In this document: piece by piece, positions 5,431 through 63,503 of the stretch
How the letters are laid out: each line of letters opens with the position of its first letter
Numbering within the stretch: position 1 is the stretch's first letter
From: Candidatus Woesearchaeota archaeon
Lineage (GTDB): Archaea; Nanobdellota; Nanobdellia; Woesearchaeales; JAZDKJ01
NCBI GenBank assembly: GCA_043803105.1
Contig: JAZDKJ010000012.1
Span: 118,150-182,149 of the forward strand
Direction of reading: 5' to 3'
Length of the DNA stretch: 64,000 nucleotides
Translations under genes and position numbers: made by a program
The notes under the pieces: model-generated
What the model was told of the DNA's origin: nothing
Seen by the model: the letters and a program-made list of their open reading frames with translations, nothing else
Database searches by the model: none

Positions 5431-5503
5431 ACCTGCTCCTCAACAAAAGCTGTTTATTAATCTTTTGAAAATGTTTAAATATCAAGACAGAACATTGCTT
5501 GTT

Positions 5504-5659
5504 ATGAAATGCGAAATCTGCAAGAAAACCATCGAGGAAACCTTTCTGAAGAAGGTCGTAGGTAGTTATCTCAAGGATAAGAAAGGAAAGAAGCACCTGA
5601 TCTGCCCTGACTGCCAGAAGAAATATCCGAAGAAGGAAGACATTCTTACGCGGCTCTAG
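5504..5659 (+). CDS. Small zinc-finger protein (51 aa)
   Basis: MKCEIC...ICPDCQ (two CxxC); ATG 5504 follows a TTTAAATA box near 5474. Confidence 0.7.
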   Translation: MKCEICKKTIEETFLKKVVGSYLKDKKGKKHLICPDCQKKYPKKEDILTRL

Positions 5660-5699
5660 CCGCATATTATAAATACCAAAATCAATTAACCCTTCTAAT

Positions 5700-5772
5700 G
5701 CCTCTGTAGCACAGTAGCTACTGCGTCTGCCTCGTAAGCAGAAGATCGGGAGTGCAACTCTCCCCAGAGGCT
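5700..5772 (+). tRNA. tRNA-Thr(CGU), no intron, CCA not encoded
   Basis: Acceptor GCCTCTG/CAGAGGC; anticodon arm TCTGC-CTCGTAA-GCAGA; T arm GGGAG-TGCAACT-CTCCC; TTATAAAT box near 5667. Confidence 0.92.
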
Positions 5773-5827
5773 TTTCAGGTTTTGTTTGGATGTTTTTCCC
5801 AGGTTTTTGCATATTGCAAAAAGCTGG
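5772..5827 (-). repeat. Hairpin element related to the tRNA-Phe T-loop intron
   Basis: Reverse complement CCAGCTTTTTGC-AATAT-GCAAAAACCTGGGAAAAA...AACAAAACCTGAAAA resembles 63397-63489. Confidence 0.7.
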
Positions 5828-5971
5828 TTGGGAGCGCACATCTCCCCAAGGGCTTTGTTTCGATGTACTCTCATTTTAGTTCAATTTTTTCCCTATCCGC
5901 AATATGTTGTATCTGTATAGTGATAACAAAGGAAACATTTATATACTTGTTCTGCTTGGATTTATCATAGG

Positions 5972-63273: not shown

Positions 63274-63503
63274 GGGGACGTAGCTTAGCCTGGGAACAAA
63301 GGCTTAGCCGATGTCAGGACAAAGCACACGGCTGAAGACGGTATTATGACCCGTAAGGGAATGATTTGTTCGATACCGTGGTATCCGGGATTCAAACAGC
63401 TTTTTTTGCTTCGCAAAAAAACCTGGGAAAAAGCTTTTTTCCTCAACGGAAAAAAGAACGGTTTTGACAGAACAAAAGAAGCCTGAAAGTTCCCGCGTCC
63501 CCA
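63274..63503 (+). tRNA. tRNA-Phe(GAA) with three introns (63295-63320, 63338-63374, 63397-63489)
   Basis: Removing the introns gives a 74-nt cloverleaf: GGGGACG TA GCTT AGCCTGGGA AAGC A CACGG CTGAAGA CCGTG GTATC CGGGA TTCAAAT TCCCG CGTCCCC A. Confidence 0.88.

What the first reader, a model, noticed from the sequence alone, without database searches (positions are those of the whole stretch)
5772..5827. Antisense copy of the tRNA-Phe T-loop intron element sits directly 3' of tRNA-Thr
Seen: the reverse complement of 5772-5827 (CCAGCTTTTTGC-AATAT-GCAAAAACCTGGGAAAAA-CATCC-AAACAAAACCTGAAAA) aligns at both ends with the 93-nt intron at 63397-63489 (CAGCTTTTTTTGC-TTC-GCAAAAAAACCTGGGAAAAA-[extra hairpin]-AGAACAAAAGAAGCCTGAAAG). 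The T and A runs change length together (5/5 vs 7/7), which preserves the hairpin. One copy is inside a tRNA and spliced; the other abuts a tRNA in the opposite orientation, about 57 kb away. Inference: a small mobile hairpin element (REP/MITE-like or a mobile BHB intron) that targets tRNA loci, and a candidate source of non-canonical tRNA introns.
Basis: partly seen in the sequence, partly recalled or inferred. Interest (0 to 1): 0.75.

Follow-up and report, generated by a model that had tools for sequence, protein, structure and literature searches.

The report
Reversed mobile intron module behind tRNA-Thr
A 54-base hairpin element lying backwards just behind a threonine tRNA gene is a copy of a small module that elsewhere in the same tiny archaeon acts as a removable tRNA intron, and the duplicated piece of tRNA beside it suggests how such introns may spread as DNA.

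Summary
The reverse complement of 5773-5826 and the T-loop insert of tRNA-Phe (63397-63489) share a hairpin plus CCTGGGAAAA. A covariance model built only from metagenome copies scores them first and second in the window (51.5 and 43.4 bits; next 17.6).

They are not a lone pair:
- 14 model hits at E<0.01 in this genome.
- 13 of 151 genomes of the order.
- At least 117 metagenome stretches and 104 species-genome stretches. The latter are labelled Woesearchaeota, Nanoarchaeota, Micrarchaeota, Iainarchaeum and Undinarchaeota.

In sense orientation at tRNA position 59/60 the module forms the intron side of a bulge-helix-bulge splice motif. Its 3' NGAA pairs with T-loop UUCR and covaries with it.

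The focal copy is reversed and lies outside tRNA-Thr. It is followed by a decayed duplicate (21 of 27 bases) of the tRNA's T-arm and acceptor end, so it is a DNA-level insertion, not an intron. Flanking target duplications of variable length, in both orientations, recur across the family.

How the module moves is unknown. This scan has already noted the same phenomenon in this genome and on other DNA.

The parts
5700..5772 (+). Intact tRNA-Thr(CGT). T-arm is GGGAG-UGCAACU-CUCCC (5748-5764), acceptor 3' strand 5765-5771, discriminator 5772.
   Evidence: ARAGORN. Rfam RF00005 60.4 bits, full length.
5773..5826 (-). Focal element copy, read on the minus strand: CAGC-T5-GC-AATAT-GC-A5-CCTGGGAAAAA-CATCCAAACAAAACCTGAAA(AG). 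Its 3' end abuts, or overlaps by 1-2 bases, the tRNA-Thr 3' end.
   Evidence: R1 hit 5794-5825(-), 43.4 bits. 97% identical over 38 nt to the T-loop intron copy at G000:C6:403731.
5800..5826 (-). Hairpin of the focal copy: stem CAGCTTTTTGC / GCAAAAACCTG with one C-C mismatch, loop AATAT.
   Evidence: Folds. Family covariation. Matching run lengths.
5793..5803 (-). Conserved motif ACCTGGGAAAA.
   Evidence: Exact match. Part of the pattern found in at least 117 metagenome and 104 species-genome stretches.
5828..5854 (+). Decayed duplicate of tRNA-Thr positions about 47-73 (T-arm GGGAG-CGCACAT-CTCCC, acceptor-like CAAGGGC, T). It matches 5746-5772 at 21 of 27 bases.
   Evidence: compared by eye. 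In one search it and the tRNA's own end were the only two genome matches at up to 5 substitutions. No closer source in 150 other genomes of the order.
63274..63503 (+). tRNA-Phe(GAA) gene with three inserts. Exons: 63274 to about 63295, 63322-63338, 63376-63396, 63490-63503. D-loop insert about 63296-63321 (ends uncertain by 2 bases). Anticodon-loop insert 63339-63375.
   Evidence: Not found by ARAGORN or Rfam as it stands. After removing the three inserts in a script, ARAGORN calls tRNA-Phe(gaa) with a normal cloverleaf. It is the only Phe-like locus by blastn-short.
63397..63489 (+). T-loop (59/60) insert of tRNA-Phe, sense copy of the module. First hairpin plus CCTGGGAAAAA at 63397-63432, second hairpin at 63432-63453, 3' end ...AAGAAGCCUGAAAG.
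   Evidence: R1 hit 63398-63431, 51.5 bits. Second hairpin. Splice-motif geometry read: U54-U55-C56-A57 (63391-63394) pairs with UGAA (63484-63487); the bulges are AA|C and AG|U.

Best explanation
The stretch 5773-5826 (minus strand) is one copy of a small non-coding module found across DPANN archaea. The module is 5' (C)AGC, then a U-run hairpin and matching A-run, then CCUGGGAAAA, a variable middle, and a 3' end of A-run, CCUG, AAAG.

When the module lies in sense orientation between tRNA positions 59 and 60, it supplies the intron half of a bulge-helix-bulge motif. Its last NGAA pairs with T-loop U54-U55-C56-R57. Two 3-base bulges carry the cut sites, and the hairpin region gives the inner helix. 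The host's splicing endonuclease and RtcB ligase would then remove it, as inferred for tRNA-Phe at 63397-63489.

The focal copy is not an intron. It was put in as DNA, in reverse orientation, at the 3' end of tRNA-Thr(CGT). The event duplicated the tRNA's T-arm and acceptor 3' strand. That left an intact tRNA on one side and a spare copy (5828-5854) on the other, which has since decayed. At this site the element probably does nothing essential; at most its U-runs help end tRNA-Thr transcription.

Shown: family membership, hairpin and splice-helix covariation, both orientations, flanking duplications, and empty sites in relatives.

Inferred: that the tRNA-Phe insert is spliced, that insertion happened at the DNA level, and the way of insertion. 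My guess for the last is templated copying from an intron-bearing donor during repair or replication, not a dedicated transposase. The reasons are that the duplications vary from 11 to 30 or more bases and the junctions are imprecise.
For: Family membership: R1 was built without this genome and ranks the two window copies first and second. There are 14 hits at E<0.01 in the genome. I placed 13 of these 14 by eye in or against a tRNA or the 16S gene.

Hairpin: run lengths match in 52 of 55 cores. Stem covariation gave 0 of 500 shuffles as high.

Intron role:
- Removing the three inserts gives tRNA-Phe(GAA), and this is the only Phe-like locus.
- In metagenome copies, 32 of 74 have TTCR-A directly upstream. 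Of those 32, 25 have a 3' junction with a 4/4 central helix and a 5/5 T-stem. Controls gave 2 of 32 (reversed) and 3 of 32 (shuffled).
- Partners covary: TTCA with TGAA or TGGA 17 times, TTCG with CGAA or CGGA 8 times.
- Species genomes give TTCA-TGAA 9, TTCG-CGAA 5, TTCG-TGAA 1.
- The genome encodes EndA and RtcB.

DNA-level insertion:
- The focal copy is reversed and followed by a 21/27 duplicate of the tRNA end.
- tRNA-Ala(CGC) at C6:303770 is followed by two reversed copies, each followed by an exact duplicate of the tRNA end (26 nt and 15 nt).
- Direct repeats of 11 bases or more flank 13 of 74 metagenome copies, against 0 of 47 in a control region, and 23 of 82 species-genome copies. Some of these are at non-tRNA sites.
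- 6 of 74 copies lie beside or overlap a tRNA on the opposite strand.

Empty sites: 8 of 14 relatives' tRNA-Thr loci have no duplicate. The other 6 have different cassettes bounded by exact 12-22-nt copies of the tRNA's own end.

Patchy, multi-copy spread: 13 of 151 genomes of the order, with 1 to 14 copies each.
Against: - No RNA data exist, so splicing is not shown.
- No filled and empty pair at strain level was found, so no insertion event is directly seen.
- No mobilising enzyme is identified. RVT_1 gave 0 hits, and the single Y1 transposase has other hairpins.
- The duplicate at the focal site is 22% diverged, while the element's hairpin is identical to the copy at C6:403731. Simple neutral ageing of one insertion does not explain this. 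It needs selection on the element, gene conversion between copies, or a later replacement.
- The sense copies carry U-runs of 5-7, which should tend to stop archaeal transcription inside the tRNA gene. This rests on established knowledge of oligo-T termination and was not tested here.
- The splice motif at tRNA-Phe is 'relaxed' (an A-C mismatch next to the 5' bulge), and the minimum-free-energy fold draws an internal loop instead of the 4-bp central helix.
- The exact pattern was not found in the same-genus genome G001. That genome is only 84% complete in 240 contigs.
Confidence: 0.68

Rival explanations
1. The cassette is a scar of integrase-mediated integration into the tRNA gene. A larger integrative element brought its own copy of the tRNA 3' end (attL/attR), and its interior was later deleted. 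What remains is 54 bases between the tRNA and a partial duplicate, like a cis-mobilisable remnant.
For: - A partial duplicate of the tRNA 3' end lies at the far boundary.
- The genome has four tyrosine recombinase genes. Three large ones lie next to tRNA genes that also carry element copies: C7:31539, C6:520267 and C10:29288.
- Sugahara et al. 2012 proposed intron gain and tRNA fragments through an integrating element (PMC3293823, abstract only read).
Against: - There is no integrase or any credible ORF in or beside the focal cassette.
- The same module also lies inside T-loops as an intron, in the 16S gene, at tRNA 5' ends with 5' duplicates, and at non-tRNA sites with unrelated direct repeats.
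- It occurs in both orientations relative to the tRNA.
- Duplicate lengths vary widely.
Confidence: 0.12
2. The flank copies are by-products of intron-bearing tRNA genes and not of a free element. For example, partial gene conversion or illegitimate recombination with an intron-less or processed tRNA copy places a complete 3' end in front of an old T-loop intron.
For: - Sense-oriented flank copies have exactly the layout tRNA, whole module, then a duplicate starting at about position 58. Examples are G117:C149 and several.
- Some flank copies keep a few T-loop-like bases next to the hairpin end: CCGGAA at tRNA-Ala, AAC at the focal site (by eye).
Against: - This route does not give reversed copies such as the focal one, the two at tRNA-Ala, or L088.
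- It does not give 5' duplicates or non-tRNA sites.
- No CCA is seen at the junctions I looked at (by eye).
- No reverse transcriptase was found: 0 hits in a genome that is 96.5% complete.
Confidence: 0.1
3. The piece at 5828-5854 is the 3' half of a split tRNA, and the reversed element is its leader. The leader would pair with a sense copy trailing a 5' half elsewhere, allowing trans-splicing.
For: - The piece has a complete T-arm and acceptor 3' strand.
- A sense and an antisense copy of the element would pair over about 30 bases, as in the known split tRNAs of Nanoarchaeum (recalled).
Against: - The genome has no 5' half with the matching acceptor strand. All 7 hits to GCCCTTG[TA][AG]GC lack any D-arm (by eye).
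- The T-loop CGCACAT is degenerate.
- The piece is best explained as a copy of the neighbouring tRNA (21 of 27).
- At tRNA-Ala the equivalent pieces are exact copies of the adjacent intact tRNA.
Confidence: 0.03
4. The similarity is a chance match of low-complexity A/T runs, or the element is a generic terminator hairpin.
For: - Unrelated A/T-rich places in the window score 33-35, against 38 for the pair.
- The 11-mer with up to 1 mismatch is not enriched in the window: 5 matches against 2.3 expected, and 10 of 100 shuffles had at least 5.
- The plus strand after tRNA-Thr does carry T4-T5 runs.
Against: - The R1 scores.
- The exact 23-base specified pattern occurs in hundreds of archaeal stretches, while the reversed-pattern control gave 0 in 151 genomes.
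- The conserved CCTGGGAAAA, the position inside T-loops, and covariation with the T-loop.
Confidence: 0.02

Closest known systems
Non-canonical bulge-helix-bulge tRNA introns that appear to have 'transposed' between tRNA genes in Thermoproteales (Fujishima et al. 2010, seen only as summarised in Yoshihisa 2014, PMC4090602, passages read)
   Same: - Very similar insert sequences sit in tRNA genes of different identity.
- They are removable through a BHB motif.
- Gain is thought to occur at the DNA level, by an unknown mechanism.
   Different: - The lineage differs (DPANN phyla).
- A defined 5' hairpin plus CCUGGGAAAA module is conserved across phyla.
- The preferred site is the T-loop at 59/60, using pairing to the universal UUCR.
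- There are visible DNA footprints: reversed copies outside genes and variable target duplications. The passages I read do not describe these for Thermoproteales.
Integration of archaeal plasmids and viruses into tRNA genes with partial tRNA duplication, and the tRNA-disruption model from Caldiarchaeum (Sugahara et al. 2012, PMC3293823, abstract read)
   Same: A tRNA gene stays intact while a partial copy of its end lies beyond the inserted DNA. The idea that such events create introns and tRNA fragments is shared.
   Different: - The insert here is 54 bases with no recombinase or cargo.
- Both orientations occur.
- 5' as well as 3' duplicates occur.
- The same module is itself a spliceable intron.
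REP/REPIN elements with RAYT (Y1, HUH) transposases, and IS200/IS605 hairpin ends
   Same: Short hairpin-forming repeats, multi-copy and non-coding.
   Different: The one Y1 transposase gene in this genome is flanked by unrelated hairpins (CCGCACTTTAGTGCGG-type). The copies are mostly inside or against RNA genes. The long, variable target duplications are not a feature of that family (recalled).
Heavily interrupted tRNA genes of DPANN and Asgard archaea (Kaneta et al. 2018, PMC5829648, passages read; 2026 bioRxiv preprint 10.64898/2026.10.13.758758, abstract read)
   Same: - Many tRNA genes are missed by standard tools because of several non-canonical inserts.
- A single-domain EndA is present.
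- The preprint states that the route of intron arrival remains open.
   Different: In the parts I read, those papers do not describe this hairpin module or its extragenic copies with target duplications.

Membership tests
Archaeal BHB intron (tRNA-Phe copy, 63397-63489) | Interrupts an RNA gene whose exons join to a canonical mature sequence | tested here: met
   Removing the three inserts in a script gives ARAGORN tRNA-Phe(gaa) with a normal cloverleaf.
Archaeal BHB intron (tRNA-Phe copy, 63397-63489) | Two 3-base bulges separated by a 4-bp helix at the exon-intron junctions | tested here: met
   By inspection: UUCA (54-57) pairs with UGAA, and the bulges are AA|C and AG|U. An A-C mismatch makes the motif relaxed. 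Family level: 25 of 32 against 2 and 3 of 32 in controls, with covariation.
Archaeal BHB intron (tRNA-Phe copy, 63397-63489) | Splicing endonuclease and RNA ligase encoded by the host | tested here: met
   PF01974 at 96.8 bits in a 203-aa ORF. PF01139 RtcB at 550 bits.
Archaeal BHB intron (tRNA-Phe copy, 63397-63489) | Excision seen in RNA (spliced junction, circular intron) | not testable with these tools
   No RNA run was listed.
Archaeal BHB intron (focal copy, 5773-5826) | Lies inside an RNA gene, in the sense strand, with a BHB motif at its ends | tested here: not met
   It lies after position 73 of an intact tRNA-Thr and on the opposite strand. Neither strand's fold shows a BHB at its ends (by eye).
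'Transposed' tRNA introns (Thermoproteales type) | Near-identical inserts in tRNA genes of different identity | tested here: met
   Identical hairpin cores recur in different loci: GCAATATGC at four loci, CCATAGG at four, and GCTTCGC at two, in tRNA genes or beside them (by eye).
REP/REPIN-RAYT | A cognate Y1 (RAYT) gene flanked by the repeats | tested here: not met
   There is one Y1_Tnp gene. Its flanking hairpins are a different sequence.
MITE | Terminal inverted repeats and a target duplication of fixed short length | tested here: not met
   The ends CAGC... and ...CCTGAAAG are not inverted repeats. The duplications are 11 to 30 or more bases.
Integrative element at a tRNA gene (attL/attR) | Partial tRNA duplicate at the far boundary | tested here: met
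   21 of 27 at the focal site. Exact 26-nt and 15-nt duplicates at tRNA-Ala.
Integrative element at a tRNA gene (attL/attR) | Recombinase and cargo genes between the repeats | tested here: not met
   Only 54 bases lie between the tRNA and its duplicate. The ORFs listed there overlap the tRNA and look spurious. None of the 4 PF00589 hits is in the window.
Split tRNA gene | A partner half elsewhere whose acceptor strand and trailer are complementary | tested here: not met
   No tRNA-like 5' half with GCCCTTG was found in the 96.5%-complete genome.
Transcription terminator | Oligo-T tract placed to end the upstream transcript | tested here: inconclusive
   T4-T5 runs lie at 5772-5775, 5780-5783, 5793-5797 and 5804-5808. 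Relatives have a plain T-run directly after tRNA-Thr. No transcript ends are available.

The most novel reading that the evidence does not exclude
The module is a protein-less, self-contained 'portable splice site'. It spreads through DPANN genomes as DNA, by host repair or replication template switching, and duplicates a variable stretch of its target as it goes. It becomes a new intron whenever it lands in sense orientation in a T-loop, because its 3' NGAA pairs with the universal UUCR. That would make it the first case in which the arrival route of archaeal tRNA and rRNA introns can be read directly from genomes.
Probability: 0.3. Interest if true: 0.85.

Novelty: new variant of a known kind. 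Interest (0 to 1): 0.68.

Why it matters
How archaeal protein-spliced introns get into tRNA and rRNA genes is an open question. [quoted passage not shown] A 2026 preprint on Asgard archaea says the route of arrival remains open (abstract read).

This family offers both states side by side. The same module appears as a working-looking T-loop intron and as reversed or extragenic copies with target duplications. It does so in many genomes from several DPANN phyla. That makes the question testable by population genomics and by simple enzyme assays.

It also explains why standard tools find few tRNA genes in such genomes. Only 6 of the 15 Rfam tRNA matches in this genome pass the family's cut-off.

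My searches listed no paper describing this module. They cover only the held open-access library, and supplements were closed.

Tried and rejected
Split-tRNA reading: I searched the genome for a 5' half matching the 3' piece. None was tRNA-like.

Foreign source for the duplicate: pattern search with up to 3 mismatches in 151 genomes. It found only G000 itself and one ordinary tRNA T-arm.

REP/RAYT: the Y1 transposase neighbourhood has other hairpins.

Reverse transcriptase: 0 hits.

Viral vector: the exact pattern gave 0 stretches in viral contigs.

RNA evidence: no RNA holder was listed.

Reads: the one DNA run (share 0.07) was laid. Four short contigs covered only parts of 5446-5774 and none covered the cassette, so it says nothing about the cassette.

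Strain-level empty site: the search for related loci with the downstream 171-aa protein in metagenome contigs found no relative. The same-genus genome's contig ends before the tRNA-Thr position.

Search for other tRNA-Phe genes: a loose regex gave mostly chance hits and its output was cut. I replaced it with blastn-short of the in-silico spliced tRNA.

Script errors: the first hairpin regex missed most copies through a regex fault and was replaced. The 'no_hairpin' filter was too strict, so I did not use its counts. One search used no such filter. ARAGORN with long-intron settings gives some doubtful tRNA calls; I used it only for strand and adjacency.

Taxon labels were assigned by me by hand from the record titles. 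The 16 records titled 'Methanosarcinales' may be mislabelled bins, which I did not check.

This genome's own taxon name (Woesearchaeota) comes only from earlier scan notes. What I verified is an archaeal 16S gene.
Full report
**What is at the coordinates.** tRNA-Thr(CGT) occupies 5700-5772 on the + strand (ARAGORN; Rfam 60.4 bits). From 5773 to 5826 the minus strand reads CAGC-T5-GC-AATAT-GC-A5-CCTGGGAAAAA-CATCCAAACAAAACCTGAAA. This abuts the tRNA's last bases. The 93-nt stretch 63397-63489 starts CAGC-T7-GC-TTC-GC-A7-CCTGGGAAAAA and ends ...AACAAAAGAAGCCTGAAAG.

**Is it more than chance?** The pair scores 38 in a local alignment. For 2000 dinucleotide shuffles the mean was 18.7 and the maximum 37, and 0 of 2000 reached 38. 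Unrelated A/T-rich places in the window reach 33-35, however. The 11-mer with one mismatch allowed is not enriched in the window. So the pair alone is only moderately convincing.

The family settles the matter.
- The pattern CTTTTT-N5-16-AAAAACCTGGGAAAA occurs 7 times in this 1.56-Mb genome and in 4 of 150 other genomes of the order. The reversed-pattern control gave 0.
It hit 104 stretches of species-representative genomes.
- I built covariance model R1 from 49 metagenome copies only. In the window it ranks the tRNA-Phe copy first (51.5 bits) and the focal copy second (43.4 bits). The next score is 17.6.
- In the genome R1 finds 14 places at E<0.01.
- In the order it finds matches in 13 of 151 genomes at E<=0.001, with 1-14 copies each. 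It finds none in the same-genus genome, which is 84% complete in 240 contigs.

**The hairpin is real.** T-run and A-run lengths are equal in 52 of 55 distinct cores (21 at 5/5, 22 at 6/6, 9 at 7/7). None of 10000 permutations matched this. The three variable stem pairs change on both sides in 53 cells, 98.4% of cells are paired, and no shuffle or slid control comes near.

**What the sense copy does.** The tRNA-Phe gene is invisible to ARAGORN and Rfam as it stands. I removed three inserts in a script: a D-loop insert at about 63296-63321, an anticodon-loop insert at 63339-63375, and the T-loop insert at 63397-63489. ARAGORN then calls tRNA-Phe(GAA) with a normal cloverleaf. blastn-short finds no other Phe-like locus, so the inserts presumably must be removed for the cell to live. 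That step is inference.

The T-loop insert lies between positions 59 and 60. This is the T-arm equivalent of the canonical 37/38 site. Read against the standard bulge-helix-bulge geometry:
- The T-stem is the outer helix.
- U54-U55-C56-A57 pairs with the intron's UGAA.
- The bulges are AA|C and AG|U.
- The intron's 5' GCUUUUUUUG can pair with its 3' CAAAAGAAGC as the inner helix. An A-C mismatch sits next to the bulge. The fold prefers a neighbouring register.

The pairing of the intron end with the T-loop is supported by independent copies.
- Among 74 unique metagenome copies, 32 have TTCR-A directly upstream.
- Of these 32, 25 have a 3' junction with a 4/4 central helix and a 5/5 T-stem. Controls gave 2 (reversed) and 3 (shuffled).
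- TTCA goes with TGAA or TGGA 17 times, and TTCG with CGAA or CGGA 8 times.
- Species genomes give 9, 5 and one G-U case.
- In this genome I read nine T-loop inserts with this hairpin by eye. Six have 4/4 central pairs. One is a UCCA/UGGA double change.
- The shortest insert (36 nt, G000:C12:115067-115102) is just the hairpin plus CCUGGGAAAA. There GGAA itself is the strand facing UUCA.

This gives a reason for the conserved motif. CCUG closes the inner helix, GGAA or NGAA faces the universal T-loop, and AA or AG is the bulge. The host has one EndA (203-aa ORF) and RtcB. Kaneta et al. 2018 report that DPANN EndAs with an extra loop go with heavily disrupted tRNA genes (PMC5829648, passages read).

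**What the focal copy is.** It is on the wrong strand and outside the tRNA, so it cannot be an intron of tRNA-Thr. Neither strand folds into a splice motif at its ends.

Directly after it, 5828-5854 reads TT-GGGAG-CGCACAT-CTCCC-CAAGGGC-T. This matches the tRNA's own T-arm, acceptor strand and discriminator (5746-5772) at 21 of 27 positions.
- It and the tRNA's own end are the only two genome matches at up to 5 substitutions.
- No 5' tRNA half with the complementary acceptor strand exists in the assembly.
- No closer source was found in 150 other genomes of the order.

The same layout is cleaner elsewhere. tRNA-Ala(CGC) at G000:C6:303770 is followed by two reversed copies. Each is followed by an exact duplicate of the tRNA end, 26 nt and 15 nt. 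Other loci have a duplicate of the tRNA's first 14-25 bases, then a copy in either orientation, then the intact tRNA. One copy lies at a non-tRNA site between 19-nt direct repeats (G000:C5:47111).

Outside this genome:
- Direct repeats of 11 bases or more flank 13 of 74 metagenome copies, against 0 of 47 in a control region.
- They flank 23 of 82 species-genome copies. One has a repeat of about 50 bases covering a promoter and gene start.
- 6 of 74 copies lie next to or overlap a tRNA on the opposite strand. One of them (L088) has an exact 25-nt duplicate of the tRNA end, the same arrangement as the focal site.

In each case one intact copy of the gene end is kept.

**Empty sites.** In relatives, tRNA-Thr(CGT) often follows the same small zinc-ribbon gene.
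- Of 14 tRNA-Thr loci examined, 8 have no duplicate of either end within 300 nt. In most of these a plain T-run follows the tRNA.
- Three have a different short cassette ending in an exact 12-18-nt copy of the tRNA's 3' end.
- Four have a 14-22-nt copy of its 5' end upstream. One locus has both.

The element part of the query matched only within G000. So such cassettes come and go independently, and the focal one is not ancestral. These relatives are in other families, so this is not a strain-level filled and empty pair.

**How it might move.** This is inference.
- Both orientations, copies outside genes, and duplications argue for a DNA-level event rather than reverse splicing into RNA.
- No reverse transcriptase was found.
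- The duplications range from 11 to 30 or more bases. The junctions look imprecise: a few T-loop-like bases remain next to the hairpin end in some flank copies, by eye.
- The only Y1 transposase has different hairpins, and viral contigs lack the pattern.

I therefore favour templated copying from an intron-bearing donor during break repair or replication template switching at tRNA genes. A dedicated but unknown enzyme is the alternative.

Three large tyrosine recombinase genes lie beside tRNA genes that also carry copies. That keeps an integrase-scar reading alive at low odds.

One thing is not explained. The focal duplicate is 22% diverged, while the focal hairpin is identical to that of the T-loop intron at C6:403731 (97% over 38 nt).

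**Spread.** Record titles of the carriers name Woesearchaeota, Nanoarchaeota/Nanoarchaeia, Micrarchaeota, Iainarchaeum and Undinarchaeota, besides unspecified archaea. There are also 16 bins titled Methanosarcinales, which I did not check, and five bacterial records that look like chance matches in coding sequence (labels assigned by hand). T-loop intron contexts dominate in the Woese/Nano-labelled records. In Micrarchaeota and Iainarchaeum records the module lies mostly after tRNA ends, in anticodon loops, or reversed. A copy also opens a roughly 150-nt insert in this genome's 16S gene, after GGATTAGATAC.

**Comparison with what is known.** The closest concept is the 'large-scale intron transposition' inferred for Thermoproteales. 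It has an unknown mechanism and is presumed to act at the DNA level (Yoshihisa 2014, PMC4090602, passage read; the original paper was not read). Integration-linked tRNA disruption was proposed for Caldiarchaeum (PMC3293823, abstract read). A 2026 preprint on Asgard tRNA introns tested copying, mobile elements and reverse transcription, and concludes that the arrival route remains open (abstract read). My literature searches listed nothing on this module. They cover only the held library.

Earlier notes of this scan describe the same phenomenon in this genome (e1-731299, e1-1898730) and in many others. My reading was formed before I saw them, and it agrees with them.
- the explanation of the conserved motif through the T-loop pairing with covariation;
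- the spread across several DPANN phyla;
- the anatomy of this reversed copy.

**Verdict.** The focal element is a reversed, extragenic copy of a widespread intron module, with a decayed target duplication. It is a new variant of a known kind. How it moves, and whether splicing occurs, remain unproven.

Noticed in passing
window 63283-63321: The D-loop insert of tRNA-Phe repeats the D-arm string GCTTAGCC (63283-63290 and 63302-63309). This is another insert with a short copy of its target beside it. Its ends are uncertain by about 2 bases.
   Followed up: partly
G000:C8:150832-150990 and about 151090-151125 (L035:1033-1190 and about 1295-1330): The archaeal 16S gene (1598 nt against a 1478-position model) carries two inserts. 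One of about 150 nt, after GGATTAGATAC, starts with the same hairpin module. The other is about 35 nt, between ACTGAA and TTAAAGGAATTGG.
   Followed up: partly
window 5753-5759; G000:C6:303770-303841: The T-loops of tRNA-Thr (UGCAACU) and tRNA-Ala (UGCGACU) have G where U55 is nearly universal, and relatives share this for tRNA-Thr. Such loops could not pair with the module's NGAA. That may be why these two tRNAs carry flank copies instead of T-loop introns. This rests on two cases only.
   Followed up: no
G000:C6:10055-11377: The RtcB match (550 bits) is reported with one TAG inside the matched stretch. I did not look further.
   Followed up: no
G000:C7:31539-32033, C6:520267-520767, C10:29288-29785: Three large tyrosine recombinase genes (429-451-aa frames) each lie next to a tRNA gene that carries a copy of the hairpin module. 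They may be integrated elements at tRNA genes.
   Followed up: no
G000:C6:210287-210896: An IS200/IS605-type Y1 transposase gene is flanked by its own hairpins (CCGCACTTTAGTGCGG type), which are unrelated to the module.
   Followed up: yes
G000:C5:47070-47190: One copy of the module lies at the end of a protein-coding gene, not at a tRNA. It sits between 19-nt exact direct repeats (about 31 nt if imperfect matches are allowed).
   Followed up: partly
G000 whole genome: Only 6 of the 15 Rfam tRNA matches pass the family's cut-off in a genome that is 96.5% complete. Most tRNA genes carry one to three inserts at non-canonical positions.
   Followed up: partly
L195 (Undinarchaeales-labelled record): A unit of 5' tRNA fragment plus module is repeated twice in tandem in front of the intact tRNA. 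So the process can act repeatedly at one site, as at tRNA-Ala in this genome.
   Followed up: no
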